Of a DNA stretch of 64,000 nucleotides, positions 6,696 to 31,693 are shown in pieces. The notes beneath the pieces are model-generated. The model was not told the origin of the DNA and searched no databases. It saw only the letters and a list, made by a program, of their open reading frames with translations. Position 1 is the first letter of the stretch. Every line of letters starts with the position of its first letter. The DNA comes from Psammoneis japonica (taxonomy: Eukaryota): assembly GCA_008632985.1 (NCBI GenBank), contig QPGO01000020.1:186001-250000 (forward strand), written 5' to 3'. The position numbers were made by a program, and so were the translations under genes.

Positions 6696-8087
6696 ATGAA
6701 GAGACATACGTCATTGATTCATGGAGCTCTTGTCGCCCTATTTGCTTCATCGATTTTGCTACCCAATAAACAATTCGCTATCGCGTACACCGTAAATACT
6801 CCATTCACAGCAGCTGCAACGACTGTGTCACGTTTCTCGCCAAGGATGCCGTCTCGTTTCTTTACTCACACAAATGCAGTGAGTCGTTTCTGCCAGGAAG
6901 GACCATGGCGGACAACACGAAAATCGACTACTGCTCTTTCCATGAAGGCCAGTGCTCCTCTTCCTTATCCTGTACGAGTGACTGTCATGGGAGGTGGAAA
7001 CTTTGGTTTGGCATTGGCATCCGTTTGTGGTCGACAGGGAATTCCGGTAACTCTGCTTGTGCGAAAGGAAGAAGTGGCTGAAGCCATCAACAACAATCAT
7101 ACGCACCCGAAATATGCTCCCGACATTCCGATTCCAGTGTCAGTTCGAGCAACGACAGATCCGGAATCAGCTCTTTCGGATGCCACCTATGTCATTCACG
7201 CCGTTCCAGTACAATACAGTCGAGCATTTCTCGACTCAATCAAGGAGTACCTGCCTGCATCGACTCCAGTACTTTCAGTGAGCAAAGGCATTGAAACCAC
7301 AAGTCTCGGATTCATGAATGATATTCTCAAAGATTGTCTCGGCGAGGAACGACCGTATGCATTCTTGTCTGGCCCATCCTTTGCCAAGGAAATTCGCATG
7401 GGCGTTGCCACAGCGGTTGTGATTGCTTCCGAGGACCTGGATTTGGCAAGGGATTTGGCCGAACTCCTCTCGGATGATCGATTCCGTTGTTTTACTTCCA
7501 AAGATGTAATGGGCGTTGAGATTGGTGGTGCTGTCAAAAATGTGATTGCGCTCGCAGCTGGCATGTGCGAGGGTCTCGGGCTAGGCACAAACACAAAGAG
7601 TACGTTGGTCACACGAGGTTGCGGGGAAATGAGAAGGTTAGGTCTCACATTTGGAGCTCAACCAAGCACCATTGCGGGTTTGTCTGGTGAGTAAAATATG
7701 GCACACATTGCTGGAATGTTACATTGTGACGGTTACTCGTATCTCACATTGTCGGTTCATGCAGGCGCTGGAGATACGTTTGGAACGTGCTTTGGACCGC
7801 TCTCACGAAATCGAAAGTTCGGCTTTGAACTTGGGGAAGGGAAATCTATGGAGGAAATCCTATCGAGTACGTCAGAAGTGGCTGAAGGCGTAGATACCTC
7901 CATTGCTCTTGTGCGTCTCATTAAAACTAAAGTCCGAGGGTACCGACTGGATCTCAAGTATCCAATTCTGTTTGCAGTCGCAAGTGTGCTAGAGGGAAAG
8001 ACGACGCCTCAGGAAGGATTAGAGGGATTTATGAATATGCCCATGCAAATGGAAAACTTTGACGAAAAGGATGTTAGTGTTTCCTAA
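6696..8087 (+). CDS. gpsA: NAD(P)-dependent glycerol-3-phosphate dehydrogenase, probably plastid-targeted; intron 7687-7764
   Basis: VMGGGNFGLALA, SKGIE, LSGPSFAKE, GGAVKNVIALAAG and GLSG|AGDTFGTC...SRNR motifs; signal peptide followed by AIAYT and a Ser/Thr/Arg-rich transit-like region. Confidence 0.93.
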
Positions 8088-9804: not shown

Positions 9805-12469
9805 GGCACGAATTTGATTCCGACTGTTCTTTTTAGCGAAAGTTTCGATCTGGCAACGGTCTTTGTTGTCACAGTGCAGTAATATGCTGGCGATTTATGC
9901 TCTCCACTAGTCTTGGGTAGTTCCTCCCAGCGATGTAATCACGCGGCAGCAACCTGCTTTCTCATGGTTTTTCGCGACTGGGTGTTCCCGCAAGGAGCAG
10001 GAACAAGGCACAAAGGCACGTTGAGTTGTGCGTGACGGTTGCTAAGATGAATATATCCACGACTTAGAATAAAGATGAAATTTTCAACCACAACATATAA
10101 TTAAAAAAAATTTGGTATGGTTTGGATATCTCTCTATTTATCTAATAATACTTCTCCCGCCATTTTGCTCAACGGTCGCGTCGGTCTGTCTTTGCTCCAC
10201 CGCACCAAAAACGAGCGACGCAAGCCGCAAACACGACACTCTGACAACGAAACACACCGAACACAGTGGCGGGTCCTGCATGGGAACAACTCCAACATCG
10301 TGGAAATGAGTTTTTTCACGATTTTCTCTCACCCGCATGGCTGAAATCTGGCTTAAATCAGATTTTGTTATGACTGTCGTCATGCAGCAGGAGGAAAACG
10401 TTGGAATGCTCCATCCACAAAGCAAGACAGTGACGCCACCTCTTGCTTTTTGCTGGCAGCAACATGAGTGCAAGAAGCCAGCACACAAGGGGGGAAAACA
10501 GCATGCAATGACTTTGAACCAGCTTCATTTTGGGGCAAATTAGAAGCACAAGAGCATTGTTGGAAGCAGCAAGCTGTCACTCAAGTCATCTCCCGAGAGC
10601 CAGCAAAACAGCGCTTGCTCTTTTTCCTCTGCTGAGATTTCATTGGTCAAAACATCCACAGTGGGCCCATGTTGCTCTTTCCTCCAAAATTTTGCTCTGA
10701 ACTCACCCACAAATCTGCACCGGAAAAGCAGCGTGCCAGCGAGATGGCTGCAGCGGCATTTTTTGTGGCTGGCAAAGTCGGGCCACACACAAAAAAGGCA
10801 CTGAGAGAATGATGCCATGTTTGTGTCACAATCTCCAAACAATCAAGCCAAGCAATGAGCAGCTGCACAGCTGCAGCAATTTGTCTGCCCCACGCACATG
10901 TCCTGCATGGGGCTTGGTCATTGCATGGGTTCTTCTTTTCCCCTCATGCATCTTGAGCTTGGCTGCAAAGCAGAACGGTGCCATTGAAAACAAGTGCATG
11001 GAGCATCAAGCACAAGTTGAGTGGGGAGGCTGAGCTGGAGCTGCCATGTCTTGCACAGTCCATTTTCCAGTTGGCAAGTTTTCTTCTGCTCAGCTCACAT
11101 CACTCCGCCCACTCTGGAGTCTGTGTGTTGCTCTTTCTCATCACCCTGCTTGCCCCAGAGTTTGTGCAAAGAAGAGCAGTGTGTGCAGCAAAGTTGAGAG
11201 GTGCAAAAAAGCCAAGAGAGTGATTTGCTCATCACCTGTGATCAAGCTGACCAAGATCCTGCTCATTTGTCAGAACCACATTGCTGAGAACTTCATTTTG
11301 CTTTGTCATTTTTTGTGAGGCCCAAATGAGAACAATGACAAGCCATTCACATTTTGTGGCAGACTTGTGGCAAAGCAATGCAATTGCTGCTTGGCTGCAA
11401 GCTGCCCCAGACACCATCTCAAACACATGCAACAACATTTGCGGCCTCAGATCTTTCACTTCTTCTCTTTTTTGCCATGTTGAGCAGCCAGAGCTCAGCA
11501 CACACACTTGCGGAACAAAAGAGATCAGATGAAAAAGCCCATTTGTCAAAAAGAAGCCTCCTCTTTAAAGAGCAGTCTCTTTCTGCAACCCATGGATCAT
11601 TCCTCATGGCAAACAGTCTGTTGCAGCTGACATGTCACCCATGTGTTGGATCAAGACATTGTGGCTGTGCCAAGAAAAGAACTGCACACTGTTGAAACAG
11701 CAGTCAAATGGGCTGCAGACAGCGCCAGCTTCAGTTTGCCACAGTGAAAAGCACATGCAGCAAGTGCTTGACCATCTGAGCACACCACAAGACCATGTCT
11801 TTGTGAGTTGTGCCCACAGTCCTCAAGCTGTGCAGTGACTGAATGACCACTCAAGCACCACTTTGCATTGCTCTCATCAAGATTTCTTTGGCAAAACCAG
11901 ATGGGGTGGCTCTGTCAGAAGAACCAAAGTCCACCCACACACCAACAAGCACAGCTTTTTCTGCAGATCTGCAGCCAAAGTGGACAGGGCAAGATGACTG
12001 TGCATTTGTTGCTGAAGTGAAAAAAAGACAGCCACAAAAGAGCAAAAAATGGCACAGCTTGGGTGCAGCTGCACTCTTCTTGCAACAACTCAAGGCCCAA
12101 TGATGCAGCTCATGTGACCATGTCAGAAGCTTGGCTTGATGTGCCAACAAGAAGTCTCATGCATTTGGTGCGCAGCTTCTTTGGTGGCTGTGACAAGGAA
12201 ATGGCATCTCACAGGGACACAGAGCATGCAGTGTTGAACTTCCAACACAGACACAAGCTTGCTGAAAACATGTTTGGACAGAGAAGAGCAAGTGGCAGTC
12301 AGCAAAGAGCATTGCTCCATCAAAGCACCCCTTTTGATGTTGGCTCTGGATGCAAAGAGACAATGGGAGCAAGAAGAAGCAAGAGTGTTTCTTCAAGAGA
12401 TTTCCAGCTCAGGAGCACACATCTGCAGCAGGGATCTGAGCCAAGACAAAATCAACTGGACACTTCACT

Positions 12470-14012
12470 GAATGACTGTGTCTTGTTGTCCACAGCAGAC
12501 ACATTTGTTTGCAAATGAAGAGAGTGGAGACATGACATTGAATGCTTCAATGACCAACAATGTCAGATTTGTCAACCTCAGGGAGAAGGACATCCTCGTT
12601 GCTCTTGGGCTTTGCTTGGTCATTCATGACTGGCGAACCATCATGACTCAGCGACATCCATGTGATTGTTGCAAAATGTCTCATCAGCATCATCTTCATT
12701 GTGACCGCCTCTCCAATCAACTTGACAACAGTGCTTGCAGTCCACAAATGGCTGGGTGCAACAGGTGGAGAGTGCACAACATTGCACGGTTCATCATCAT
12801 CAGCAACACATTCTGTCTTGCACTTGTTGTCTTTGTGCTTTGTCATCCAATTCTTCATGAGCTGATCAAGTTGAAGATGTGGTTTGCCACCAATCCAAGG
12901 ACATTCACTGTTTGTCTGCAAAGACTTTGAGCAATGGCACAAATGGTTGAGCTGTTTTGTTGAACTCAGGGGAGACCACCGATTTGAAGATGATCCAGCA
13001 TGGGGTGAGGTTCTTGCATCCTTTTGATCCAGCATTCAAGGGTTGACTGCATGTGATGTGAAGGAAATTGCCAAGCACATGATTGCATCCAGGCCTGGCA
13101 ACACTGGACCAAAGGAAAGCAACATTCCAAGCAATGCAACCTGTGCTGCTGCCACTGATCTTGACAGGAATGCTGTCAATGATGGCATTTTTAAGAATGT
13201 GCTAGAGAGAACACACTCAAAAACTCTTCCACAGCCACCACCTCCAAGTTGCGCCATTGTCTTCAGAGCAAGCAACCTCAAGTGGAAAAAGCAGAACACA
13301 AGGTGTGAGCATGATGTGGATTTTCAAGATGAGCTGTCCAAGGACATTTTGTTTGCAGCCTGCCCAGATGCCCATGTCAAGCAAGGTGGCAATGAATCCA
13401 GACATGTGGGCCCACACTTCTCAAGCTCTGCCATGGCCGCCCTCCCTCTCATGACAAGATTTTGAGAAAAGCTGAAGGAAGGTGTTTCTTTGAAAGATTT
13501 GGGTTGATGAGGATTGATGGTTGCTGGGTGAGGTTGGCCTGCTGTGTTTCACAAGTTGAGCCCTCTGGCTGTCTTGAGGCATGAGAAGAAAGCAGGGGGG
13601 GTTTCATGTGGCTCCAAGGAGAGAGACATGCATTGTCAACTTTCCTGTTCATGCCGTGGGTTTCATTGACAAAAGAACTCCAAAAATCTGTCAGAGGATG
13701 CAGATGACCCAGTTCCCAGTTTTGTGCAACCACACAACAACTGTGCACAAGCTCCAGGGCAGGACAATTGAGAGCCTGGTTGTCAACAACTCAGACTGCA
13801 GAGACAACTGGGTTTTGTGTGGTGTTCTGTCTAGAGTGACAACAAGAAAGGGACTTTGTCTCAGAAAGAAGCTTGATGGCAAGAAAATGAAGGACATGTC
13901 ATTGGCACTGAATGAGTTCCTTGGTCACTTCAGGCACACAAGAGGGCTTCAAGAAGGCTCTCTGGCTGCTGCTGCTGCTGCTGCAAATGACTGTGCCAGG
14001 CACTGCAACTGA
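12470..14012 (+). mobile_element. Degenerate PIF1-family helicase, probably a Helitron-type relic
   Basis: Collinear frameshifted motifs: IVTAS...GATGGECTTLHG, ELRGDHRFEDDPAWGEVL, DRNAVNDGIF, QFPVLCNHTTTVHKLQGRTIESL and VLSRVTTRKGL. Confidence 0.72.
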
Positions 14013-16149
14013 AGAGTGCAATTGTTGGACATGGATTTTTAACACATCATGCAGTGGTCCTTGTCAGGTGCAGAAATGATGTGGTTGAGTTGTTTGTGCA
14101 CGATCCTCAGTTTGAAAGCAACCAAGTGATTGTTGGCACAAAAAGCACAAGATCCAAAAATTCATCTCTCAATGGAAAAGAAGTGATGCATCATGTTCGC
14201 CGATGCAGGCAAACAATTGAAAGACAAAAGTGACAGCCATTCAAACATTTGCAAACAATGACCTTGAAATGGAAAAATGGCCGATTGATTGGCCAGGAGT
14301 CAATGGCATCCCAGCCAGAAATGATTGATGCAACACGAAATTTGGCATTTTTTGTTGTTGTTGTCAGAGTGATTTTTGTGAAGTCCCAAAGCCTTCAAAA
14401 GTCATTGGATGCTTTTTGTGTGCAAAGACTGCTTGCAAATTTGACCATTTTGAAAGTGGTTGACCCCAAACCCCAGCTTCATCTCATCTGCCTGTCTCCG
14501 GCCACCCAGTTGGGGATCAGGGCAGGGGGGAAGACACAGATGAGTTTTGAAAGGTTTCTCACACAATGAGTGCAAGTGGTGCTTCTGCAATGTCTTGAGC
14601 TGTGCACATGGCCTTCAACATCTGGAAAACATTGTGGCTCTTGTTCAGACTTACCCTCTCTTGTTCAGAATTGTTTGTTCTTGACAAGTTGACAAGCCCT
14701 TGATGTTTGTCAACAAAGGGAGTTTAATTGTTGTTTCAACCTCCCAAGTGGGATTTAACAGTTGACACAAATGGGCCGCATTGTGCACACATTCTTGTCA
14801 GTTTTTCACATCGGCTCATTTTAACATCATTTTTGCATCCACCCACAATTGCACTGACCTTCCAAGCAGGAAACAACAGTTGACAAAACTTGTCACACTT
14901 GCGTTTGTTTCTGTCTCACTTGACAGCTGTGTGTTCACAACAACTTTCTGACATTGCTCGTTTCTGCCTGACAATGGTGATGTTCAACTGCGTTGTTAAC
15001 CTGATTGTGCATCGGCTGTGTGCTGCTCATCATCTGATTTGCAAATGTCCCATTTTGTCATTTCTACACTGCACACCAAACAATGCTCTCTTTTTCCCTT
15101 TCTTGTTTTTCTCCTGCGTTCCACTGGCTCCTGCTGTCCTTTGCAGTTCCCACACAATGGGTGTGATGTTTTGGTCCTTGTGCCCTCCCTTGCAACCACT
15201 CTCACTCTCTCCATGATTGTCTGCACCAGGCAACAACATTGCCCTGCAATGATCTGTTTTAAGTTCCTGTTGTGTGGCAGGCCAAAGCATCACCTGCAAC
15301 AAAAGAAAACTTTGTGCCAATGATCAGGTTTTGTGCATTTTTGTGTTTCTCACAATCTCATCTCATGTGCTGCTTCTGCTCACCTTTGCACCCTTTCCCA
15401 TTGCTGGTCTTCCATTGTTGCAGCTCAGGTCATGTGCCCAAATGTCTGTGTGCAAAAATGTGCACAAGTGTCAGTCATTTGCACTGCATGCCCGATCTCC
15501 ATGCACTCGCCACTTGTTTTTCTCACCTTGTGTCCTGCATTTTTTTCCATCCCATCCGCAATGATGCTGCTGCCTGTCCCCACAGCTTTCATTGTCAAGA
15601 CATTGGATGTCACTTGAGTTTGCTTTTTTTGTCTTGTGAGTGAGCAACAATTTGTGTTTTTGGCCAAAATGCAAGCCTGACCATCAGTTGATTCCTGTTG
15701 GCATCTCTTTTTCAGCAACAATTTTGTTCAAAAATTGATGATTTTGTTGCAACACAATGGTTTGAATGATTTGAAACTGCCTCAATGAATCATTCAGTTG
15801 TTGATGTCACACATGCATTCAATGACTTTGATTTCATCATGTTGGTGTGTTCTTGTTGAGATTGAAATTTTCACACTCATGCTGCACACTCCCAGCTCCG
15901 GGACCTCAATCAACACCTTTTTGATGTTTGGTGTGTTCAACAATTGCCGCTGCCACCAAGACAATTGCCTCTCTCCAGAAAGCTCAGAAACAGACCCTTC
16001 ATGCCAGTGAAATGACCAACTTTGGAGATGAATCTTGAAAAGAAAGTGCACAACTTAAAGGTGGGTCATGTGCTTCTGCTCTCTCTTGGTTTTCCGTCCA
16101 AACAAAAGACAGGGAACACCATGAATTTCCATTCACTGACTCCCTGCCC

Positions 16150-17530
16150 TGGTCATTGTTGGCTCCTCTGGGACACAATGGAGGCACTCAAGGCCATCCA
16201 AAGACAGCTGGGTGCTTGCACTGTCACATGGTGCAGAAAGCTCCCTTGTCTCTGCAGGTGAGGTGGCTGGGCCAAAGCAAGCCAATCACATCAGATGGAA
16301 AAGGGGCTGCATTGGTCCAAGACCAGGCTTTTCCTTCCCAGCCATTGTTGTTCTTGCCTCCTCAGGGACCCAATGAAGTCTCTTGTGACCATCCCAAGAC
16401 AACTGAGTGCTTGTGCTGTCACACAGACAGCTCCCTTGTCTTTCTTGCAAGTTGGTTCTTGGCTGGGCCAAACCCAGTCATGTCAGAGAGACACCAAGGT
16501 GCTGCACTGACACAAGACAAGGCCCTTGCTTCCTGGCCATCAGTGTTGTTGGCTTCTCTAGGATCCAATGAAATCACCAAAAGCCATCCCAAGACAACTG
16601 AGCACTTGCACTGTTGCACAGATGGTTCCCTCATCCTTCTTGCAAGGCGGTTCTTGGCTGGGCCAAACCCAGTCATGTCACAGAGACAAGGTGCTGCACT
16701 TGCAGAAGACAAGGCATTTGCTTCCCAGCCATTGTTGTTGTTGTAAAAAAGCCATCCTAAGACAATGGAGCACTTGCACTGTTGCACAGATGGTTTTCTT
16801 GTCCTTGCAAGTTGGCTGGCTGGGCCAAACCCAGTGATGTCAGAGAGACAAGGGGCTGCATTGACACAAGACAAGGTCTTTGCTTCCCAGCCATCAATGT
16901 CACTGCATTGTCTGGGACCCAATGGAGTCACCCAATGCCATCCCAAGACAATGGAGCAATTGTGCTGTCACACAGATGGTTTTCTTGTCTCTGCAGGTTG
17001 GCTGGATGGGCCAAAGTCAGCCACCATGTCAAAGAGACAAGGTGCTGCATTGATAAAAGACAAGGCATTTGCTTCCCAACCGTTGCTGTCATTGCATCCT
17101 CTGGGACCCAATGGAGTCATCCAATGCCATCCCAAGACAACAGAGCAATTGTGCTGTCACACAGACTTTCTTCTTGTCCTTGCATGTGGGGTGGCTGGGG
17201 GCCAAAGAACCCAGTTATGTCAAAGAGACAGGGTGCTGTGTTGACACAAGACAAGGCCTTTGCTTCCCAACCATTGTTGTCATTGCATCCTCTGGGACCC
17301 AATGGAGCAATCTAATGCCATCCCAAGACAACGGAGGAGCACTTGCACTGTCACACAGATTGTTTTCATGTCTTTGCAGGTGGGGTGGCTGGGCCAAAAA
17401 ACCCAGTCATGTCAAAGAGACAGGGTGCTGTGTTGACACAAGACAAGGCCTTTGCTCCCCAACCATGGTTGTTGACATGTCCCTTGCAACCCAGCAGAGT
17501 GCTCCAATGCAATCCCAACACAACTGCACA
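16150..17530. repeat. Tandem array of about seven diverged ~190-bp units
   Basis: ccatcccaagacaa...gctgggccaaacccagtcatgtca.agagaca...gacacaagacaaggc.tttgcttccca recurs near 16194, 16389, 16584, 16752, 16938, 17127 and 17318. Confidence 0.9.
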
Positions 17531-19241
17531 CCTCCTTTGCTGCATCTGTGGGCCTCATGCTTCCACACCTTGTGCAGCTGGGCATCTTCTTGTTTGTGAA
17601 GTGATCGTGCAACGGGGAAGCTGCTGCCCAAGACATGTCTTGCAACTTCCCAAATCAAGAGTGCAAAGACACCACAATTGAGCCAACACACTCAACAAAT
17701 GCAGACTGAGTGCATTTGGGGTGCATGTCATGAAGGCAGCAACTCAAACCAATGTGCATTTGAGGCAATGATGATGATCTGGCCAGGCATTTGGCAAATG
17801 TTTGCTGGGACATGGGGACACCACCACATTCTCCATTTTAGCTTCTCAAATGGAGTTGGCCTGTGTGCCATGCACCATCCACCCAGCAAGCCTGTTGCTC
17901 CAACTTGAGACACCAAGACATGTCATCAAGCTCAACATCAGAATGAACCCCTTGGAACTGAGGATTTGTGGCTGATGAACTCTGGCCATTGTCTTCATTT
18001 GCAGCAATGGTGACAGGGAAGAAGATGAAACAATCTTCCCAGTCTCTGTCATCTGGCAGTGGCTTTCTAAGCAGTGGAGCCATTGCTTGCTTCATGAGAC
18101 ACAAAGACCATGCCATGGCAAGTTTAAATCTAAGCTGCTCCTCTTCCTGCTGGTGTTCCCAGTGTTTCTCTTCCTGAAGCACTGGGGGTGTGCTTTCCAA
18201 AGTCATCATCAGGGTTGAGGCCAAAATGAACAAAGAAAGAAGAACACTGGAGATGACTTTGAAAATGTCTTTGGAGAGCATGCTTGTTGTTGTTGTCATT
18301 GTCACACATCCAACCAGGACAACAAAGCGGATTGTGACAGGGGCATGCCATTGTTGCTGTTGGTTGTTAGATCGGAGGATGAGTTGTGCAGTGTCCAGCA
18401 GGAAAAAAGGACAGGTGCAGCAGAGACAGAGTAAAGCAAAGGCAGAGAGCTGACAAAATGGAAGAAAAAGGAAACAAATGAAGCTGTTCTTGAGAGGTTT
18501 AAAATGAGCCACACAGGCAACTAAAACAAAGGCAGAGATCTGACAAATGGAGGGGGGGGGAATGAATGAAGCTGTTCTTGACAAGAGTTCAAAATGAGGA
18601 CAAAATGAGCAACACAGGCAACTTCACACAATGCTTTTGGGCCATGTCTGCATTGCCATTGCTGTGATTTTTGACAAAAATGCTCCTCACACCAATGAAA
18701 TCAATTCTTTTTCTTTCCCAAATGCAGACATGCACCGCAACTCAAGTCAACCATGGGATTGGTTGCAGCGGCAGCAACATTTGACACCAAGTGCAAAAAA
18801 CACCTGGAGAGCATGTTAAAATGTCATTGTGATTGTGAGGTGTGTGTCCCAAGAAAGGCATCTTCATTCAAAGCCTTTGATCATCATCTGAACTTTTCAC
18901 TCTCATCTTCTTTGTTTCTTCTGCATCGGACACTGCAGCAAATGTTTTGAAGGTCTAAAATGGAGTGCACTGTGCAGACACCCATGACTTGGATGGCACA
19001 TTCTAAAAAGATGACAGAGAAAGGCATGCACTCTTTCTTTGGTTTTGTTTTCCATGTCAAAAATGGAAGCAAGCGTGGCAATCCTTGCCTGTCACGATCA
19101 TCTGTGGCAATCAATTGCCTCAATGCCTCAATGTCTGTGTCAATCAATGCAAAAGTTTCAATCAATGGCTCAAATGTCACCCTCTGTGACTTAAGGAGAC
19201 TGTCCAGGGCAGTTGTCAGGTGTCAAAAATTTGTGCGAGTT

Positions 19242-19517
19242 TGACAGAAATTGAAGGCAAATGGCAAGAATTCAAACAACAACTCCTCACTGCTGTCTAA
19301 ACAGCAGATGAGTCTCCGCTCAGAGACCGTTGCAGGAGCCGAAAGACGTGTGAGTCGGTGTGATCGGGCTACTGTTGTTGTTCTTGTGAGCCTTGTGGCT
19401 CGAAAGCAAACTACATCGTGCGTGAACGCGCAGAACTAAAGCACACAAAACTGTGCGCGGTAAACTAAACAGCGCGCGACACTTCGCGCGCATCCAAATC
19501 CTGTTCAAATCCTGTCA
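19242..19517 (-). repeat. 3' LTR of the copia element
   Basis: tgacagaaa...aaatcctgtca; 266 of 276 positions match 26080-26355 in manual alignment. Confidence 0.97.
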
Positions 19518-22500
19518 CTCCCCAGTTTGCTTGAGGAGCCACAGAAACAGATTCGACTTCGGATGGAATGAAGTTCCAGAACATGAGGGGGCGGAGAAGG
19601 TCCCAGATTTGGGAGTGACCCCAATGCTTGCTGAGAATGTCAGCAGGGTTGCGGGAGCCTTCGATGAAGTGGAACTCAAGGTAACCAGAGGCAATTGCCT
19701 CACGCACACGGTGGAACGATAGTGCGGTGTGTCGCTTGTGTAACTTGGAGTGCGGGATGGTGGCACTGTCTACAACCGACTTGTTGTCACCGAACATGCA
19801 ACCAACATTGCGGATCGGGATGCCAAGGCAGCGCAGGGTGATGCGCAGGTCGATAATCTGCTCAACACAATTCCTTGCGGCAACAAATTCAGATCCACAG
19901 GTTGCAGTCTCCACGGTGGCTTGTTTCTTGGAGAACCAATCAGCCGGGAATTTGTTGAGGAAGTGGAGCATTCCCATGACAGAGCGTCCGGTGAGCATGC
20001 AATGGCACAAGTTTGCATCGACGCAGTGGGTGGCAGTGACGAACTTGCCAAGGGGCGGTGGAGCGTCCTTCGGGATCATCTCTTCTGCTTCACCATACAC
20101 GGAATGCATCCATTCATGGGCCGGAGCAGGGAGATCCGAACAGTCGGGCTCTTCCGTGCGAACGCGGAGAGCACCGTGTCGCATCTTGGAGAGGCACCCA
20201 CAGACGTGTTTGGCACGATCCAAGTGGCCTTGACGGGGCGCAGCTCGGAAGCTAGAGAGTGACATGACAGCCGTGGCAATGTCAATTCGACCAAGGGACA
20301 CTGCCCATTGGAGTGAACCAACAAGAGACTGGAACTTGTGAATGCCATCGGGTCCCAGCAGTTTGGAAGTGTCCAGTTCGGGGTGGTCACCCTTCTCTAG
20401 AGGTGACAGGGCGTTGGTGGCAGGTTTCTCCCCAAACAGTCGGGCGCAACTGTCGACCATGCGCTCGATGTACTTGCGCGGAGACAGGCACAAGGTTCCG
20501 TCGGGGTCCCGGGAAAAGTCGCAACCCAGATGGAACTCAATGGGTCCCGCACCCTTGAGCTTGAACTTGCACTTTTCCGTGAGAGTGTCGACGAAAGATT
20601 GAGGGTCCTTCATGGCAATGGCGAGGTCATCCACATAAACGGCAATGCATTCACAGTGGTCGCCGTTCCTGCGCATCCAAATGTCGGGTTCGGCGCGGCA
20701 GGGGAAGAAGCCTTCAGCTCGCAGGCAGTCGGCGAAGTGCTCGTGCCAGCGGAGACCGGAGCTGCGCAGTCCATGCAGTGCCTTGTGGATGACAAGGATG
20801 TGTCCTTCGAGTTTGCCAAATTCGGGTCCAGCTACAATGTAAAGCTTCTCCTTGGTGGTGGCTTCAAGGTGGGCATTGCCAATGTCGGTGGCCCATGTCT
20901 CCAGCTCGTTGAGTTCGGCCAGGAAAATCATCAGCCGAAGGCCACGGAGGGAGACTACTCCGGAGTAGACACTGTCGACAGGTACGTCCGTGAGGTGCCC
21001 GTCGGCTACGAGTCGTGCCTTGTGGCGACCGTCGTGTTTCACGTCGCACACCAGGTGCACTCGGATCTTCTTGTGTCCCGCAGGAGGAGTGGAAGACTTG
21101 AAGGGCCCGCAGTCATGGAAGACTTTGCATTCGTCGAGTTGGTCCATCTCGAGATTAGTTGCGTCTCCCCACTTGCGGTTGCCGTTGCGTTCGTCCAGTG
21201 ACATGGCGTGTTTGCAGTTCCGGGGAACTTCGTATCCGCACTTGTGGCGAGGTGCAGTGCGGAAGGAGCGAAGCTTGGCTTGGTTGGCCATGCGAAGTGG
21301 CTTCTTTTGGCGCCTCGCGACAGTGCGGAACCGCTTCCAGCCATCCGTGTCGAGGAGTCCGTTCTCTCGTGCATAGATGGCACAGGTGACGGGGTCGTCC
21401 TTGGCGATGATGGCAAGAGGCTCGGACGTGATCTCCCCACTTTCCCATTCAAGCATGATGTTGTAGCTTGAGCCTTTCCAGGTTGGGTCGTGAGGCTTCA
21501 GAGGTCCTTCGTGTGATGCGATGCGTCGAAATTTCCAAATGGTGGTGTCTTCGTCTTCTTGCTCAATGTGATTCATGATGTCATTGCAGGCAAGGACTTC
21601 CTCGTATTCGTCATTGTTGACAGAGCAGACGAACTTAGTGAGCTCGGGATTGCCGTTCACTTTCCATTCGTGGTCTTCGACGGCCTTGACGATGCGAGCT
21701 CTGTGGCGTTGTCCGTCCTCTTGTGGCTGCATGAGGAAGGTGCGTCCAATGATGTCTTGCGGATCGAAAACTGGCATCTTGGGTGTCCTGATCTCCCCAT
21801 CAGGAGAATCGACGGGGTTGTCGTCATGGCGAGATTTGATGATGGGTTCAGGTGGCTCCCCATCAGGAGGATCAAGACGCAGGTTTCGAACGGCAGGATC
21901 GGGGGCAGCGGAGCGAACGTTGGACCGGCAGAGGATCTTCTGAGTCTCGTCAGATAGGATCTTGAAGGTCATCTGGTGGCCGACGTGCTCAGCAATGCCA
22001 ACGAAGCGTCCACACAACTCACGGGATTCGGACGGCCAATCAGAGTCATCGAGGTGGAAGTGCACTGGTTCCCACCAGTGAAAGCGAAGCAATGGGCTGA
22101 TGTCCGGGGTGGATCCAGTGAGAGTCTCGAGGGGCGTGCGCCAGTGGAGACGTGGGGACGCTGTGTGGTTGAGCATGAAGCACACGTGCATGAGCGCCAG
22201 CAGCCATGTGTGGGCGGGCGAACCAAAACGGTCCATGACAGTGTTCGCCATGCGCTTCACGGTCTGGCATCGACGCTCGGCAAAGTTTTGGTGTTGCTGG
22301 TGAGGCTCACTTTGCCAGCTGGAGATGAAGAGGGCGCGTGGGATCCCGAGCACTTTGTTGCTGATCTCAACTTGAGCACGGTCGCTAATGAGTTTGGATG
22401 GGGCACCACGTTCACGGATCTGATCCTCGAGTGTGTTGACAAACTCTTTGTCCGTCTCAGTGCCGCAGACGTCAGTGACGGTAGACTCGGTGCCAACAAA

Positions 22501-25134
22501 CAGTTGGGCGCTGGTGCAACCAGAGTCGACGGCCGGGGTGTCGGCACAAACGGTGTCAGTGGCGATGGGCTCGTTGCGGCGGTGCACATTAAGGGCGGGG
22601 TTGGGTGATTTGCAGGCCTTGCGAAGGTGTGTACCGGCGGGCATGCGGGCGCACTGCGTGGTGCAGTCAAAAGTGCGACGGACCGCATCGGTGGGTGGGA
22701 AGCCAAAGTGAGGCCGAAGAGACTCGAAGGGGGGGTCCTTGGGCTGTGCAGTGCGCTCCGGAGGTGGAACGTCATCGCCCTGGGGGTCAATCGCATGTAG
22801 ATGACACTCGGAGAACACGTCGTCGTTCGGAATGAGGTGATCATCGAGGGCGGACGCGTGATCGGCAGACAAGGAAGCGGACAAGATGGTCTCGTTGACA
22901 ACGACACGGTGACGGCAGTTGCCGCATTCGTCAAATGGGTTGGCGGTGGGATCGTCCTGTGGGTCAGAGATCGCGTCGCACCACTGGTCGTCGTCAGTGA
23001 CAGAGTGATCGAGGACGGAAGGGTCCCATGTGTCATCACCGGTGAGGATGACATGGGGCAGGGTGTCCCATTCGGCGTCAGTGTAAGGTCGCATGGCAAC
23101 ATGAGGCAGGCCAGCCTTGATGTCAATGGGGATGACATAGCCATCAGGAGTGGCAATGCGTTGCAAGCCGTTGGGCACCTTGACAGAGCGATCGTTGACA
23201 TCCTGTTTGCACCATTCGAGCTGGCCACAGGAATGGATGGTCTTGCCCTTTCCCGTGCATGCGCACTGATGGAGGATGGCGATGACGGGACCACGCTGGG
23301 TCTCAATGACGGCACCAGCTGTGACAATGGGGATGTCCACCAATTGGTGATCGTCAATGCCCTGAACATCGACTTGGCGAGAGGTGCGTGCAATGACGCG
23401 AACGTCGTCGCCAGCAATGCCGCCGTTGGCCCCACGATCGACCAGAGCACCAGTGCGTGTGGAGCGATGAGCAGAGGCAGAGCAAATGACATTGTGGTTG
23501 TTGACGCGGCGGCAAGTGCGGCCATTGAGTTCCATGTCATCTGCAGAAGCTGGCGGGGCAGAGGAAGCGGCGGATGGCCCCGGTCAACTGGCATTGGGGG
23601 CTTGGTTAGGAGACAACAGACGTTGCAGATCACCGGGTGGCAGTGGCTTGCGCTTGGTGAGGTGCGCCAGGATGGGATCATCCGAAGTGGCGTCCACATG
23701 TGGGGCGGAGTCACCAGAGTCAGCAGGAGTCGTGTTGGACAAGTTGACATCACCGTCACTCCCAAGGCGTTGGTCGTGAAGGTTGGCCGCAACAGACTCA
23801 TGGCAGTTGCTGGCTCGCGGGTTGCGGGGAGGTGGACGAGAATGCTCAAGGATGATCGCCTTGGAGGAATCGGGCAACGAATCCCAGAGCCGTTGGTGGT
23901 CGGGAGGGAGACGTCTCCATTGGACACCGGTGAGGCTGGGACCGCGGGTGCAGGCAGCATTGGCTTGAAGGACGTCAACGTCGCTGTCAATGTCGTAGAA
24001 CACATCGTCGGACGGTTCCTCGGAGTGGACGTCGTGTGCGTGTGTGGCGCATCGGGGAGCTCGAGGTGTCGTCTTGGGTTGAAACGTGCTGTCGCACTGA
24101 GCTGCCGCGGAGAGGAGCAAGCCACAGTGTTGATCGCATGTGAGGCTCTTGCCACTCTGCGTGCGATGCTGATCAGCTTGGTTCTTGACAGCACGGAGTT
24201 CCTCGACAGGGTGCATGGCATTCTCGAGCATGACGCGCTTCTGTCCTTCAGAGAAGTGGTCACTGGCCGGGATGAGTGCCTCGCACTTGCGCAACTGATC
24301 TTGCCAATGAAGGATGAACCCGTGGGTCGGACCTTTCCAAGTGCCATCACCAAGACGTGCGGTGGTGAGGCACGTGAGCAGGGTGGAGGACTCGACAGAT
24401 GCGCGGGTGGAGGCAAGCGCGCACTCAGACAAGGAGCGGCAGACGGTCTGTGCGTCAGAAGACCCCACATTTTCGCGAATGAGAGCCTTGCCCTTGTCGG
24501 TGAGAAGGATGCGTTCGAAGACGGCAAACATGTGCTTTTGCTGTTCAGCAAAGAGCAGTTTGTCTTCGGGGCTGGTCGGTTTGTACGACGAGTCTAGAAT
24601 GCACTCGACGTCTTGGGCACGGGCTTGTGCCACAAGTGAGGTGTGCCAAGTGTGCCACTGCTTGTCGGATTTGAGAGCCGTGAAAGCGGTGGGATCACGC
24701 TTGATGCCTCGCTTGAAGTCTCGCACCAGGTCGCGTGCCTTGGTCGGGTTGGTGACATGTGGAGGTGCAAGGGGTGAGCTGCCGATGGACACAGAAGACA
24801 TGCAGTCGGGGCTGAGGCGGTGGGCAAGGAACTCGTCATGCGCGAACAAAGAGGAGTCGTTGGCAACGTCAAGACCTTTGTGTGCTTTGACAATGCACAG
24901 ACTAACCAGTGCTGCCAACATGTTCTTGTAACCACGGGGCAAAGGGATTGCATCAGTGCCGTTGTCATGCTCAAGCGAGTCGATTTGGGACGGCATGAAC
25001 GTGAACAGTTCCTGATGCGAGTCCGTGCCGTCTTGGGCCAAAGCCAAACGAAGAGGACTCCCAGCACCTTGGGCAAGCACGGTTCCAACAACATGCTCGA
25101 AACCATCGGTTTGTTGCTGACGAGTGAGAACCAT
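19465..25134 (-). pseudogene. Copia gag-pol polyprotein, single frame interrupted by one TGA (23586-23584) and riddled with Tyr->Cys/His changes
   Basis: ORFs 23584-25164 and 19465-23535 are in the same frame. Protease LVDRGANGG, integrase IATDT...ISDRAQ...QNFAER, RT KARLVA / DIGNA / AVYVDD, RNase H FSKKQATVETA.GSEF and NPADILSK. Confidence 0.93.
19518..19530 (-). promoter_or_regulatory. Polypurine tract
   Basis: Minus strand GCAAACTGGGGAG lies directly before the TGACAGG start of the 3' LTR. Confidence 0.7.
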
Positions 25135-26064
25135 GGCAGACAAAAGTGGTGTCAGGACAATCAATTCTGGTTGGGAAGCGAAGGCAGACTCGAAACTTGG
25201 GTGAGAACAGACTTGACTTGAAACAGACTTGACTTGAAATCTTGAACTATCTTAAAATCAGAAGTCGCCGGGCTTTGTCACCCCGTTCGTTGTTGAGTGC
25301 TAAACTTCCCATCCGGTCCGCAGAGTTGTGCCGGCACGTCCGAACCCGCAGCCAGCGGCGCTTTGGGTTGCTTGCGAGCGGAGCAGTGGGTTGCAAACCC
25401 CTGCAGGTGAGCTGACTGGAGGTGGACAAGACCCCCGAACCGTTCTTTTTTTACATCAGTTGGATTTCCCGATCAGGCTGGCCAGTTGATGCAGGCGTCA
25501 GGCACTGTGGACGAACGAACAAATGCGGGAAAGCACCCTCGCCCCAACGCAGGCTGCAATCACGGCCACTTGCTCTCACAGTCGTCCTCGTGGACCTAGT
25601 GGAACTGTAGAGCACCAGTAGTCCGGGGTAGATCAGGTGCAATGGACTCGGTGTGCTTGTAGAGTGGCAGCAAAACCGTAGTCCGAAGAGTGGATAAAGG
25701 TTCTTGGCCGTGAAGATATGTATATATATATGTGTATATGTCTTCAGCGACTAAGATCCTTGAATGTGTAGGGTTCTTGACCGTTAACCGAGGAATAGGT
25801 ATATCAAGGGATGTTGATCAAGGATAGACTTGGATATGACCGTTGAATATAAGTCTTCAGCGACCAAAGGTAGTATAATCAATCCAGATATCCAGCGGTA
25901 AGGAGACTTGACGGTGACGTTAACTTCCTGCCGATGCCCTGGTATTGAATGCGCGTAGACTTGCCGATGTATGTAGAATATATACGGAGGTCCACGTAGA
26001 ATTGAAATAGCGTCGTTGGTAAATCAACGACGACGATGGCGGTTGCTCAATGGGTTGACAATGA

Positions 26065-26079
26065 GCAAGACTGTTAATC
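26065..26079 (-). promoter_or_regulatory. Putative primer-binding site complementary to a tRNA-Asn(GTT) anticodon arm
   Basis: The plus strand next to the 5' LTR reads GCAAGA-CTGTTAA-TC, the pattern of an anticodon stem with a CT-GTT-AA loop; no TGG (CCA-complement) follows the LTR. Confidence 0.55.
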
Positions 26080-26355
26080 TGACAGAAAATGAAGGCAAAT
26101 GGCAAGAATTCAAACAATAACTCCTTACTGCTGTCTAAATAGCAGATGAGTCTCCGCTCAGAGACCGTTACAGGAGCCGAAAGACGTGTGAGTCGGTATA
26201 ATCGGGCTACTGTTGTTATTCTTGTGAGCCTTGTGGCTCGAAAGCAAACTACATCGCGCGTGAACGCGCGGAACTAAAGCACACAAAACTGTGCGCGGTA
26301 AACTAAACAGCGCGCGACACTTCGCGCGCATCCAAATCCTGTTCAAATCCTGTCA
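26080..26355 (-). repeat. 5' LTR of the copia element
   Basis: Direct repeat of 19242-19517, followed by the TSD GAGTT. Confidence 0.97.
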
Positions 26356-29300
26356 GAGTTCCTGAGGAGCCGCGAGCAGTTGGACATCGGATCCTGTGAA
26401 CATGCCAGCTCCAACCAAATTGATTCAGAGCATGGCTTGCATTGTTCATGTTGTCTGCAAAGAGGTGTTTTCAAGTGGTCAACACTTCCAAGATCAGGAT
26501 CAAACTGCAGAAAATGCTGCCAGTGACAATTGAATGACAACAGCTGGCCAGAGCCCTTCTGTTGGACACCCATTTTCATTGTTTTGCATGCACGGAATGA
26601 TGCGCAATTTGTCAGCTGTCAACAATGTGGGTTGAACACTGTGCAGCATTCCAGGAAGCATCTGCTGCACAGAAGGACATTGAACATGAGCAACAGCAAG
26701 AACCAACAAAGACAATCAGCGCCATTTTTAAACCTGAAAGGTGGGTTTGATCCAGGACTTGGTGAGTGTGCAGGCAGCTCTCTCTGCCAGGCTCCAAGCA
26801 CTGGAAATCATCGCTGCAATGATGAGAACGGCTTTGTCAAAGAGCAGTGTCATAAAGTGCTGTGTCTCAAGAGTCTTGTCAACTGACGCATTGTGCAAAG
26901 CTTGCTTGAGTGCCTTTCAGAAACATGTCGCCAAGCTCACTTCCCTTCACCACAACAGATTGAACCAGCAGACTGCAGCACACAGAGAAAACACTCATGT
27001 GAGCCACACAGGCAACAACTTGAACAAAGGCAGAGATCCGACAAATGCTGGAAGGAAAAAACAAATGAAAGTGTTCCTGACAAGTGTTTAAAATGTGGAC
27101 AGAATGAGCCACACAGGCGACTTAAATTGAGCAAAAAAGATTCATTTCTGCTAAAAAACAAAATTGGCAATTGTGTGTGTTGAAGATCTGTGGATGCAAG
27201 CAGCACGCATGTGAACAATTTCAATCATTGACAAGTTGCACTCTCTTGTCAAGTGCAGAAACTTGTTGTGGACAAATCAAGTGCAAGTCAAAATGTCAAG
27301 AACAAGCAGTTGATCCAGATGAGCAAACTTTCAAGAGTTGTGCAGAGCCTCAGTCTGTGATGGCTCTCTGCCCTTTGCAGCTGGAGCTGCCCAGCTGGGC
27401 TGGCAAAAACTCTGAACAGATTTGTCAGTGCTGCTGGCAGGCACTTGGTTGCCTTCTGAGACAGCTCTGCCAGAACTTCTTGTGGCACACGCACACACCT
27501 CTGGGGGCTGAAAGGCACCCACTGCTGGTCTGAGAGAGCAGGTCTTCTTGTGAAGTGTTGCAAGGCATGCATGTTGACGGAGCTCTGGCAACCTCCATTG
27601 GAGAGATGTGCCACCCAAGTGGCAGCTGTGGTGGGCTTTGTTTGCACAATCTGGTCACTGCTTGCACCTGCCACCTCTGTCATGACTCTGCAGCAAAACA
27701 GTGCAGGAACAGAGTGCGTGTGTCTGCTCTCTTCACACAACTTTGGCTTTGCTCAAAGTGCGCACATTTGCAGTCAGAGCACCCTCCTTGTCATTGCACT
27801 GTTTCTGTGCACATGTGTCACACTTGAGAACAAGCTGACTGTGATGAAAAATCTGCTCAAATCTGAGCCACATTGCCCCTGCCTTCTCCTCAACTTGAAA
27901 CTTGAGCCATCACCCAAGCACAACCTGTGCACTGCTTTGCCCCAGCTCCTCCTCCAATCCTGCACTTTTGTGCGCACACTTCTTTCCACCAAACTGACCC
28001 AACAAAGGACAAAGATGATGGTGCATTGGTGTGCTGGGTGTGTGCAGCAACATGAGGAGAGTGCAGCAGAGCATGACACTTGTTTGAGCAGGGGGGCAAT
28101 GGAGCACCATCAAATGAAGCATCTGTGCAGCTGGAGGAAAGCTCTCTGTCATCTCCACTCCCTTGTTTGCACTCTTAACATCATCTTGCCACCTCCTCCT
28201 CCTCCTCCTCCTCCTCAGAGGTTTTGGCTTTGTTGCTCAGTCAGCTTGAGCCATTGGGAACTCATGGGCTCTTGTGCTGTGCTCTTGTGCTTCAACATCT
28301 TGCCCCACTGTGACCTCCTCTTCTCCCCCAAACACAATGTGGTGCTCCCCTCATCATCTGAGCTGAGCTCCCTTTTCTTCACCTCAGCATCTCCCAAGTT
28401 GTTGAGCTGCTGTCATTGTGAACATTTGTGCATCATTTGCAATTTTTGAATTGCTCGCTTCTTTGTGTGTGTGCCTCATTTTTGGCAGGCACCTGCTGCT
28501 GAGCTGCTGTCTCCAGAGAGATGACCCACTGCAGGCATTGCACAGGGGTGCCTCTGCATTGCCTCTGGGATTGTTGGCTTCAATGCTTTGCAGATCTCCT
28601 GCCCATGTGACAGTGCATGATGTGTTTTTGTTGACCACTCATTGTGTGACAACAAGAAATCAGCAAATGCCTGCCACAGACACACTCCTGAAGAACATTG
28701 CACATTTTTCATCTGCCCAAAGAACATTTCTGCATGACTTCCACATGCACCCATGGCTTCTGCACAGTTTTCAGTGCAAAAAATCACAACTTGGCACTCA
28801 CACATGATGATGGAAACCTTCCACCAAGCAGGAGCAAACACAGCACTTTTGTTCAAAAAGAAATTGCACAAGGCACACAAACCCAAGATCTGGAAAGAAT
28901 CTCTAAACATGTGGGCTTGTTGCCATCCCACAGGAAGCTGGTTGACAGGCGAGACAGTGAAGATTGCCTTGGCTCTTTCCTTGTTCTAAAAATGACAATT
29001 GAGTGCAAAGAGGCAAAACTGGCAAGACAGTCTTCACATTGACTTGAAACCACTCAAGGAGTGTGGAATTGGGGCAACAAAGTGGACAAGGGCCATGGTT
29101 CAGCAAAGCAGCAGTGGCATTGATGCTGATGGGAGCATTTGACAGAAAGTGCACAATTTCAAGAGATGCAGCCACTCTTGTGAAACAAAATGCCAAAACA
29201 ATCTGGCCTCTTGAACAGAGCTCAAGAAATGCAACAACCGGTGGTTTTGAGCTGCTGCTTTTGCCACTGATTTTCTGACAGTTGCTTGGGTTTGACAGCA

Positions 29301-31693
29301 ACACTCACAAACTGATCTGAGCACAAAAGCAAGGAGCCATCAGCATGACAGCAGCTTGTTGAGCTGTGATGGGGAGCAGACAGGAGAGGATCTGCAAGGT
29401 GCCAGTCAGATGATTCATGGACAGTTTTTCCAACGGCACTTGCCAGAGTCAAAGCCAGCAACAAACTGCAACATTGACAAAGCCTTTGTGCCCCTCTTTT
29501 GTTTCCACATGCATGGCAACAGCACCCAGAGCCATCCACAACACATGGACATTTTCAGTTGATTGCTGGCCTGCCAGCCCCAAACTAGACAGCAAGGTGC
29601 TGCACCTGGGCACCTTCAAAAGTTGCAGCTGCCTGTGTCTTGTCTGTTCACAAAAATGACAGAAAAGATGGAGCAACAACATGGGTGAGAAGAGTGAAAG
29701 TGTGCCCAAATCAACAAAACAGTCAATTGAGGGTCACATCTCCATGTGGTTGTGCACAGGCCATTCTGCCCAAAACATGTGAGTGACCCAAACACACCTT
29801 GAAGCCAACACAACAAACCTGGTGCCACACTGCTCACTGATCATGCTCCCATTTCAATGACACAAACCTGTCTCAGGGGTTAGAAGTGCAGAGCAAAGAA
29901 GACAAAGCAAATGAAACACTGCCAAATGACAACAACAACATCATCAGCACACAGCATGATGCCAGCTCAGCAGTCATTGATGTGTTTGTCCAGAGTCACT
30001 GCATCTGTTGTGAAACAATGAACACACATTTGACAGCAAAATGGAGACAACATTGTGGATGTCTCACCTGTTGCAAAGATGAGGTGACAACAGCAGAAGC
30101 AATGCAAAAGTGCCATGGCTGCTGCTGCAGCAATTTTGTGCAGAGCACAGTGCAAAAAATGGCGCCTTTGTGTCACACCACATTTTCCAGTTTTCATTCT
30201 TTGGGCAGGTTGGCTCAGTGTGTCAAATGTGTGATGATCCATGGGAGATTTTTTTCTCCCCCTTCTCACACAAATTGCAGAGCTGCTGAGAGGAGCACTG
30301 TCTTTCAATGACTTTGGCATCATTTTTGGGTCTGCTGCCATCACAGAACAGCTCATGTCTGCTGAAGAATTTTTCTTTTTTCTGACAATTTTTTGCACAC
30401 TCATGAATTGTCAGTTCTGCTGTCATTTTTCATGAGTGTGTCAGCAAATGTGTGTCCAGTTTTTTTCATTTTTCTGATGATTTTCATGTGCTCAAAATTG
30501 TCAGTTTTGTTTTCATCCATGCACGGGCATTGCCACACACACATCCCAAGCCTTTCATTTTTCCAGTGATTCTGATGGAGTTGAAAATGAAAAACAAATG
30601 CTGCAATGATGCAACAAGGAGGCAGTGATGACAAACCTTCTGCAGGCCCCACCTTCCTTGCTGCCTCCCCTTGCCAGCCCATGTTTTCTTTGCTCACTCT
30701 TCTGTGCCCACCTGGCCAACTGCCTGTCATCTTTCCAGCTCACCTTCTCTCTCTCTCTTCTGTAAGCTGCATGTCCTCACCACCACCCCCTGGACCTTCA
30801 CTCAATGCTCTCTGTGTCTGTGTGGTTGCCACACTGCCCTCTTGATCCTTTTGGCAACCATGCCTTTTTGTGCACCAAGATGCGCACAACAAAAGCCCCC
30901 TGTCCAGGCATGCAAGAGAGAGAGAGAGAGAGAGAGAGAGGCGCCATCTGAGCCCCCCCCCTTCTTGCATGTCTTCTTGCTCAAACCAACAGGCTTTTTC
31001 TCCCACTGCCCTTTGGGGCATCCTGCTGATGTTGGCACATGACATGTCCCCAGATCCACCCCTCTTTGTGCCCCTTCTGCGCACCATTTTCTTGCCATTG
31101 CTGCTGCTGTGCCTTGACTCTTCTTCATCCTCTGTGTCTCATTTGCCTGCCCCAAAACGACCTCCTTGCCAATGCTCAAATCAGCTGTGCCCAGGAGGAC
31201 AAGCTCCTTGGGTGCGACACACCAGCCTCCTCACATGGCTCCTCCATCGTCATCGCCTCTTTCAGCCAAGCCAGCCCCCCCCCCCCCCCTCCCCTTTGCA
31301 GTTGACCACATTCTTGGGGGCATCGGGTGCCATTTTCATGTGTTCTCCCACTTGGGGCATCCAAAGTTTTCTCGCCTCCTCCACCTGGGCTGCTCCTCTC
31401 CTGTCCCCCTCCTGAACCTCCCTGGACTGACTCTTTTGACACCATTCTGGCTCTTCACGGCCCACCAAGCCTCCCTTTTCGCTTCTCGCTCCCCCCAGAT
31501 CTCCTCAGCCTCAATCTTGGTGTTGCCCTCTCTGATCATCTCTCTTCCCTCACATCTCGCCTCTGCCGCATGATGCAGCAAAGACGACTCCTTCCCCCCT
31601 TCTGTCCGCACTTCCCATGCCCGCTTCGCCGCGCCCGCTGCGCGATCACGCATGTTGGCTTGACATGGAGTTGAAAGTTGGAACACAGTATGG

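What the first reader, a model, noticed from the sequence alone, without database searches (positions are those of the whole stretch)
19465..25134. Transposon proteins disabled by Tyr->Cys/His recoding while frames stay open
Positions that are normally Tyr in copia polyproteins read Cys (TGY) or His (CAY): DIGNAHLEA (NAYL), KALHGLRSSG (KALYGL), DHCECIAVYVDD (YEYI), ETATCGSEF (TYGSE), THCVDANLCH, HWGHSQ and HQCACTGKG. This fixes the direction as TA->TG/CA. The same process turns TAA/TAG into CAA/CAG/TGG/TGA, so it mostly erases stops. The pol frame runs through the PPT into the 3' LTR past a CAA that may be a former TAA. The only internal stop is a TGA that fits CGA decay.
Basis: partly seen in the sequence, partly recalled or inferred. 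Interest (0 to 1): 0.72.

Follow-up and report, generated by a model that had tools for sequence, protein, structure and literature searches.

The report
TA-erasing mutation recodes transposon tyrosines
A young jumping gene in a probable diatom has lost most of its conserved tyrosines because TA steps in its DNA were rewritten to TG or CA after it inserted, which points to a host process that mutates mobile DNA and resembles one reported in a 2026 preprint on an unrelated alga.

Summary
The Tyr->Cys/His recoding is real. The element is a high-copy Ty1/copia retrotransposon (19242-26355, minus strand). Of 38 Tyr columns conserved in 120 homologues it keeps 7; 27 read Cys or His, against 49 of 700 other conserved columns changed. 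Sibling copies carry Tyr, Cys or His independently at these codons, and the two LTRs of single copies differ mainly at TA steps, so TA>TG/CA happened on chromosomal DNA after insertion. It is strand-symmetric, needs an intact TpA, prefers TAY about threefold over TAR, and is 14-22 times as frequent as CpG decay. In 13 of 25 full copies, this one included, the first 670 bases are spared; CpG decay is low there too. The stop-erasure idea fails: the CAA is CAA in every copy and the terminal TAG is mostly kept. Frames stay open because T>C and A>G cannot create stops. This copy is also cut by a CGA>TGA stop. Best reading: a host mutator acting in silenced transposon chromatin, probably by adenine deamination; no enzyme identified. 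Precedent: Bigelowiella natans TpA hypermutation (2026 preprint). This scan noted the same process many times elsewhere in this genome.

The parts
26356..26360 (-). 5' copy of the 5-bp target-site duplication
   Evidence: identical to the 3' copy
26080..26355 (-). 5' LTR, 276 nt, TG...CA ends; keeps 13 TA steps
25690..26355 (-). Spared 5' zone (5' LTR plus start of leader): 6 of 53 TA sites hit and 0 of 41 CpG decayed in this copy
25135..26079 (-). Leader; heavy TA loss begins at about 25690
23587..25134 (-). gag part of the single polyprotein frame; TA o/e 0.09, Tyr 0.6%
23584..23586 (-). Internal TGA stop from CpG decay; truncates this copy's polyprotein
   Evidence: CGA in 28 of 30 copies
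19465..23583 (-). pol part (protease, integrase, RT, RNase H order); RVT_2 at residues 834-1045; 23 of 33 conserved Tyr read Cys/His
   Evidence: protease, integrase and RNase H placed by eye from motifs
19531..19533 (-). CAA codon proposed as a former stop; invariant in all copies seen
19518..19523 (-). Short purine run before the 3' LTR (likely polypurine tract)
   Evidence: function inferred from position
19465..19467 (-). Terminal TAG of the frame, inside the 3' LTR; kept in nearly all copies
19242..19517 (-). 3' LTR; differs from the 5' LTR at 10 places: 7 TA>CA/TG, 2 CpG decays, 1 transversion
19237..19241 (-). 3' copy of the target-site duplication

Best explanation
After insertion, copies of this retrotransposon are mutated on chromosomal DNA by a host process that changes the A of 5'-TA-3' to G on either strand, fastest in TAY. 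A hit on the coding strand gives TG, a hit on the other strand gives CA, and either hit destroys the target. In frame, TAY is the Tyr codon, so Tyr becomes Cys or His; the change cannot create stops, so proteins decay by missense. SHOWN: post-insertion, DNA level, both strands, strict TpA, TAY preference, mostly independent in each copy, far above CpG decay, position-dependent sparing of the 5' end. INFERRED: targeting follows silenced, CG-methylated transposon chromatin rather than sequence pairing; the chemistry is adenine deamination to hypoxanthine by a TadA/ADAT-type enzyme; the effect is defence.
For: LTR pairs of 25 full copies: 156 single TA-type differences and 34 CA/TG doublets, against 29 CpG and 21 other substitutions. 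At 197 three-state sites: TA 2442, CA 1700, TG 2422, CG 6 cells, where about 1686 CG would be expected from independent second hits. Transitions per cell: TA 0.283, CG 0.013-0.020, AA 0.003-0.005; transversions at TA 0.0016. No strand bias: intercept 0.03, 95% -0.13 to 0.20. A purine 3' of the A cuts the rate to 0.27-0.30; 35 of 43 TA survivors in old flanking repeats are YTAR against 227 of 1331 in host DNA. Same LTR sequence, different fate: 128 hits in 3' LTRs, 28 in 5' LTRs. In spared copies CpG decay is 4/533 in the 5' zone and 244/5941 in the body. TA load tracks CpG decay per copy (rho 0.50, n=59; 0.57, n=25). CG methylation by DNMT5 targets copia elements in Phaeodactylum (PMC9998398, passages). 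TadA's natural target is U-A-C-G (PMC10586758, section 10). The genome holds TadA-like and ADAT2-like genes and two A_deamin genes.
Against: No enzyme is identified: the 9 PF00383 matches show no expansion or obvious chromatin-reader fusion. Double-stranded sequence cannot tell A>G from T>C on the other strand. The methylation link is indirect: spared versus hit copies differed in 5'-zone CpG decay in one set (3/492 vs 23/530) but not significantly in the full-length set (4/533 vs 5/245, p 0.15; 2/287 vs 2/123 in copies new to that set). Site rates do not follow distance to CpG or CpG density, and 500-bp bins of TA loss and CpG decay correlate only weakly (rho 0.35, p 0.2). TA load and CpG decay may both reflect age. 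Sequence context explains only part of the site differences (rho 0.50). No strand-coordinated runs beyond 4 nt, which a processive single-strand deaminase might leave. Loss of protein function was not tested.
Confidence: 0.6

Rival explanations
1. Same targeting, but the chemistry is on thymine: a TET/JBP-like or other enzyme modifies the T of RTA (5-hydroxymethyl- or 5-formyluracil), which then pairs with G and gives T>C.
For: Fits every count equally, since TAY on one strand is RTA on the other. In dinoflagellates 5hmU marks transposons and preferentially replaces T in TA and TC (PMC11572971, passages). That 5-formyluracil causes T>C is recalled, not from a call.
Against: No excess at TC-type steps here (A with 5' G: 0.002 per cell). 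Dinoflagellate 5fU was not detected in that paper.
Confidence: 0.2
2. A methyl mark on the A of the palindromic TpA (6mA) decays or is deaminated to hypoxanthine, a mirror of 5mC decay at CpG.
For: TpA is palindromic and both strands are hit equally; TA loss co-varies with CpG decay per copy.
Against: The symmetric eukaryotic 6mA known from the search listing is at ApT (PMC7145601, title only). A rate 14-22 times CpG decay is high for passive decay (inference).
Confidence: 0.1
3. An error-prone polymerase (eta- or iota-like) working in repair patches of heterochromatin makes the A>G/T>C changes.
For: Pol eta favours A>G at TA (recalled). AA is slightly above other A contexts (0.0031 vs 0.0017-0.0020).
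Against: TA exceeds AA 50- to 90-fold, transversions are rare, and hits show no strand-coordinated patches; pol eta's WA motif includes AA (recalled).
Confidence: 0.06
4. The changes arise in the element's RNA or cDNA during retrotransposition (ADAR-like editing or RT error).
For: Two lightly hit copies lean to TG (z 2.2 and 2.4) and share hits; the genome has a second A_deamin gene.
Against: The two LTRs of one copy, identical at insertion, differ at TA steps on both strands; no strand bias overall; multi-copy methyltransferase genes and a LINE-like element show the same loss.
Confidence: 0.03
5. The direction is reversed (RIP-like CA/TG>TA), or it is all CpG decay, or an assembly artefact.
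For: CA/TG doublets can come from either TA or CG; CpG decay is present.
Against: Homologues have Tyr at these codons; CG is seen in 6 of 6570 cells at the three-state sites; contigs of a public run match six pieces of the TA-poor flank with no differing letter and show both CA and TG at element sites (that run may be the source sample).
Confidence: 0.01

Closest known systems
TpA hypermutation of integrated NCLDV and virophage DNA in Bigelowiella natans (Mettrop et al., bioRxiv 10.64898/2026.01.13.699255; parts 1-3 of 5 read: abstract to conclusion; supplements not seen)
   Same: TpA>TpG/CpA only, both strands, on chromosomal DNA, confined to foreign sequence; deaminase proposed, not shown; TpA-poor genes there are enriched in RT and DDE domains.
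   Different: Here a stramenopile, not a rhizarian; the target is a young multi-copy LTR family and other repeats, not single-copy viral inserts; depletion is far deeper (TA o/e 0.02-0.16 vs 0.45); TAY preference, spared 5' end and Tyr recoding are not in that text (no 'tyrosine', 'LTR', 'context' or 'diatom'); no per-generation rate here.
Repeat-induced point mutation (RIP) of ascomycetes (abstract openings; rest recalled)
   Same: Dinucleotide-specific transition hypermutation of repeats, both strands, degrades transposons.
   Different: Opposite direction: RIP makes TpA from CpA and (recalled) creates stops; this removes TpA and cannot create stops. Identical LTRs of one copy have different fates, which suits chromatin position better than homology pairing.
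CoDi Ty1/copia elements of diatoms (Maumus et al. 2009, PMC2806351, passages)
   Same: Length 7114 (range 5182-8062), LTR 276 (range 153-844), TG/CA ends, target-site duplication, LTR identity 96% (range 94-100%).
   Different: No TA hypermutation appears in the passages seen; the CoDi group of this element was not determined.
TadA / ADAT2 tRNA adenosine deaminases and derived base editors (PMC10586758, section 10)
   Same: A>G outcome; U/T at -1 and C at +1 in the natural target.
   Different: Natural TadA acts on tRNA and needs G at +2; here T at +1 is as good as C and +2 has little effect.

Membership tests
B. natans-type TpA hypermutation | Changes are A:T>G:C transitions restricted to TpA | tested here: met
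B. natans-type TpA hypermutation | Acts on chromosomal DNA, both strands | tested here: met
   LTR pairs; strand intercept 0.03
B. natans-type TpA hypermutation | Confined to foreign DNA, host genes spared | tested here: met
   TA o/e 0.09-0.16 in the element vs 0.28-0.57 in seven host frames; window profile
B. natans-type TpA hypermutation | About 1000-fold raised rate per generation, active in only some lines | not testable with these tools
   needs mutation-accumulation lines; here TA transitions per cell are over 100 times most non-CpG contexts and load runs from 7% to 79% between copies
B. natans-type TpA hypermutation | Same enzyme or common origin | not testable with these tools
   enzyme unknown in both organisms
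Fungal RIP | C:G>T:A at CpA, raising TpA | tested here: not met
   direction is the reverse
Fungal RIP | Triggered by homology between repeats at the sexual stage | tested here: inconclusive
   5' and 3' LTRs of the same copy are hit 28 vs 128 times, which homology alone does not predict; life-cycle timing unknown
Ty1/copia LTR retrotransposon | LTRs with TG...CA ends and target-site duplication | tested here: met
   perfect 5-bp duplication in 22 of 25 full copies
Ty1/copia LTR retrotransposon | RVT_2-type RT, with integrase before RT | tested here: met
   RVT_2 E 2e-26; integrase position read by eye from acidic motifs, no Pfam hit
CoDi (CoDiI/CoDiII lineages) | RT clusters with named CoDi sequences | not tested
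   the homologues found carry no CoDi names; structural features fall in the published ranges
CoDi (CoDiI/CoDiII lineages) | Diatom host | tested here: inconclusive
   top two Atlas clusters for a host gene are commonest in Bacillariophyta; one gene, no tree

The most novel reading that the evidence does not exclude
This diatom has a dedicated, chromatin-guided genome defence that edits adenines in silenced mobile DNA (a natural genomic A-to-G editor with TAY preference). It would be the mirror image of RIP, destroy transposon proteins by Tyr-centred missense without stops, stay off element promoters that escape methylation, and be shared with chlorarachniophytes, so possibly old within SAR eukaryotes.
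Probability: 0.4. Interest if true: 0.9.

Novelty: new variant of a known kind. Interest (0 to 1): 0.66.

Why it matters
It would extend TpA-specific A:T>G:C hypermutation from one preprint on viral inserts in a rhizarian to transposons of a diatom, and gives testable properties: TAY preference, one hit per site, strand symmetry and a spared 5' end. A natural enzyme that edits adenine in genomic DNA would interest base-editing and genome-defence fields. In practice, LTR-divergence ages are inflated here (156 TA-type singles and 34 doublets vs 21 ordinary substitutions), open frames do not indicate intact elements, and Tyr content or TA o/e can flag hit DNA in other algal genomes.

Tried and rejected
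Stop erasure: rejected; an older TAA>CAA fixed before the family spread cannot be excluded, since homologue tails are mostly 7-30 residues against 36 here. Purifying selection on Tyr codons: none seen; TA is kept at 0.32 of in-frame TAY cells vs 0.43-0.49 in other phases. Nucleosome-like periodicity and CpG-distance effects on site rates: none. Strand-coordinated runs: only at 2-4 nt spacing. Flank effect on the 5' zone: weak and post hoc (rho 0.36, p 0.015 in 45 body-hit copies; 0.20, not significant, in all 50). MT-A70 and Tet_JBP searches of the genome gave no match but had no positive control, so they say nothing. No RNA holder was listed. No solved structure matched the RT piece, so the role of individual Tyr was not mapped. 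Depth was not used as copy number. Literature searches that found no report of this in diatoms: (open-licence PMC and bioRxiv only).
Full report
The element. The finding lies inside a Ty1/copia LTR retrotransposon at 19242-26355 on the minus strand: two 276-nt LTRs, TG...CA ends and a 5-bp target-site duplication, and one gag-pol frame from 25134 to 19465 cut by a TGA at 23584-23586. RVT_2 matches pol residues 834-1045. The family is young and abundant: DNA searches of the genome returned 259-540 candidates, of which 40 per search were scored, at 96-100% identity. The host is probably a diatom: the two best Atlas clusters for a neighbouring host gene are commonest in Bacillariophyta, the element's dimensions fall in the CoDi ranges (PMC2806351, passages), and earlier scan notes say the same. 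No tree was built.

The observation. I compared both frames with the best 120 of 2346 homologues. Of 738 columns conserved in at least 80% of aligned homologues, 38 are Tyr. The window keeps 7, reads Cys at 20 and His at 7, and has family-fixed Phe or Trp at 4; only 49 of the other 700 columns differ. All 120 homologues have 3.1-5.0% Tyr against 0.6-0.9% here. At 25 of the 27 recoded sites some sibling still has Tyr, and at 22 of 27 both Cys and His occur among siblings. This is not a family trait but copy-by-copy decay from TAY.

Direction and level. The window's LTRs differ at 10 places: 7 TA>CA/TG, 2 CpG decays, 1 transversion. I fetched 37 further places found with a query lying between TA sites (37 of 40 rows, leaving out the window and two at contig ends); with the window, 25 of 38 were full length. 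Their LTR pairs hold 156 single TA-type differences, 34 CA/TG doublets, 29 CpG, 21 other substitutions and 36 gap columns. LTRs are identical at insertion (established knowledge), so the changes came later, on DNA. Across 59 aligned rows (a few are two ends of the same copy), 197 three-state sites hold TA 2442, CA 1700, TG 2422 and CG 6 cells; about 1686 CG would be expected if a second hit were independent. One hit therefore removes the target. Transitions per cell are 0.283 at TA, 0.013 at CG (0.020 with shared variants) and 0.003 at AA (0.005), with transversions at TA 0.0016. The first 58 rows were top hits to the window copy and so lean to similar loads.

Specificity. There is no strand bias relative to the element (intercept 0.03, 95% -0.13 to 0.20). 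A model on 174 sites gives the base 3' of the A the largest effect: T 1, C 0.84, A 0.27, G 0.30, supported by cross-validation. Independently, 35 of 43 TA survivors in the old flanking repeats are YTAR, against 227 of 1331 in host DNA. An earlier scan note reached TAY as well (seen). Context explains only part of site differences (rho 0.50), and residuals show no periodicity or CpG-distance effect. Hits are not strand-coordinated beyond 4 nt.

Consequences for the protein. In this copy 100 of 135 TA sites in the frame are hit: 76 change the residue, 53 of them Tyr>Cys/His. In-frame TAY is not protected (TA kept 0.32 vs 0.43-0.49), as expected for decay without selection. No T>C or A>G change makes a stop from a sense codon, which alone explains the open frames. 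The internal TGA is CGA in 28 of 30 copies; all 5 internal stops seen in 4 of 25 full copies are TGA. So stops come from CpG decay, and this copy has one. 21 of 25 full copies also have indel bases relative to the window, real or not. Load runs from 7% to 79% of TA sites, and conserved Tyr kept from 32 to 1 of 34. Mean agreement in CA/TG choice between copies equals the site expectation (0.646 vs 0.645 and 0.656), with a weak lineage signal (rho -0.31 and -0.19; the distance included some CA/TG columns). Two lightly hit copies share 20 hits against 9.2 expected, so partly hit copies can probably still be templates. That the proteins are dead is likely but not tested.

Targeting. Identical LTRs fare differently: 128 hits in 3' LTRs against 28 in 5' LTRs. 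In 13 of 25 full copies the first 670 bases are spared (96 of 686 cells hit vs 1362 of 2046 in the body), with an edge near 25690; the window copy is one of them (6 of 53 vs 92 of 111). CpG decay, a proxy for 5mC, is also low there (4 of 533 vs 244 of 5941, p 9e-6). Against this: the contrast between spared and hit copies was strong in one set (3/492 vs 23/530) but not significant in the full-length set (4/533 vs 5/245). TA load tracks CpG decay per copy (rho 0.50 and 0.57) but not other substitutions (0.17 and 0.32, not significant); age could drive both. In Phaeodactylum, DNMT5 methylates CG in copia elements (PMC9998398, passages). I read this as targeting by silenced chromatin; it is an inference.

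Artefact check. Contigs of one public run match six pieces of the TA-poor flank with no differing letter and show CA and TG alternatives at element sites. The four runs are one sample and may be the assembly's source.

Enzyme. The genome has 9 PF00383 matches, including TadA-like and ADAT2-like genes by my motif reading, with no expansion, two A_deamin genes and 27 C5 methyltransferase matches. TadA's natural target U-A-C-G (PMC10586758, section 10) resembles TAY at -1 and +1 only. A thymine-side route remains open: dinoflagellate 5hmU marks transposons and favours TA and TC (PMC11572971, passages). The MT-A70 and Tet_JBP searches had no positive control.

Known systems. The closest is TpA>TpG/CpA hypermutation of viral inserts in Bigelowiella natans (bioRxiv 10.64898/2026.01.13.699255; parts 1-3 of 5 read; word check; supplements not seen and they may hold wider context). 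It works like that system in chemistry and confinement; shared origin is untested. It is not RIP: the direction is reversed. Searches found no report for diatoms in the held library, which lacks most subscription papers. This scan has noted the process many times on other pieces of the same genome; those are unchecked notes and were not counted as support.

Verdict. Real, strong and well polarised; a new variant of a kind known from one preprint. Interest 0.66.

Noticed in passing
window 45500-53000, minus strand: LINE-like element (weak RVT_1 hit) with a TA-poor body (46000-51000) and TA-rich DNA at its 5' end (51000-53000); may be the same spared-5'-end pattern in another element class.
   Followed up: partly
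window 10500-19200 and 26400-31400: Old repeat debris with both TA and CG almost gone and sharp edges at about 10500 and 31500; surviving TA are mostly YTAR.
   Followed up: partly
L112:1069-2163, L113, L114: Multi-copy C5 DNA methyltransferase frames in DNA with TA o/e 0.07-0.10 and 0-0.5% Tyr, while other C5 methyltransferase loci are normal; possibly carried by a mobile element and hit by the same process.
   Followed up: partly
L118:503-2216 and L117:1112-2649: Two A_deamin-domain genes; one reads ADAT1-like and the other more ADAR-like by a recalled active-site motif; no RNA-binding domain found in the pieces scanned.
   Followed up: partly
L063:1327-2055: Bacterial-type TadA-like deaminase with a hydrophobic N-terminus, perhaps organelle-targeted; label from motif reading.
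   Followed up: no
element-wide, e.g. window 24596, 24585, 21465: Some TA sites are kept in 97-100% of copies although their context is favourable (for example GTAC, CTAC); unexplained by the context model.
   Followed up: partly
L032-L060 over window 21500-26355: Shared non-TA variants form mosaic blocks between sub-lineages, suggesting recombination or template switching.
   Followed up: no
L070-L106: 21 of 25 full copies have inserted or deleted bases in the frame relative to the window copy; real or assembly error not resolved. Several copies are nested, tandem or internally deleted.
   Followed up: no
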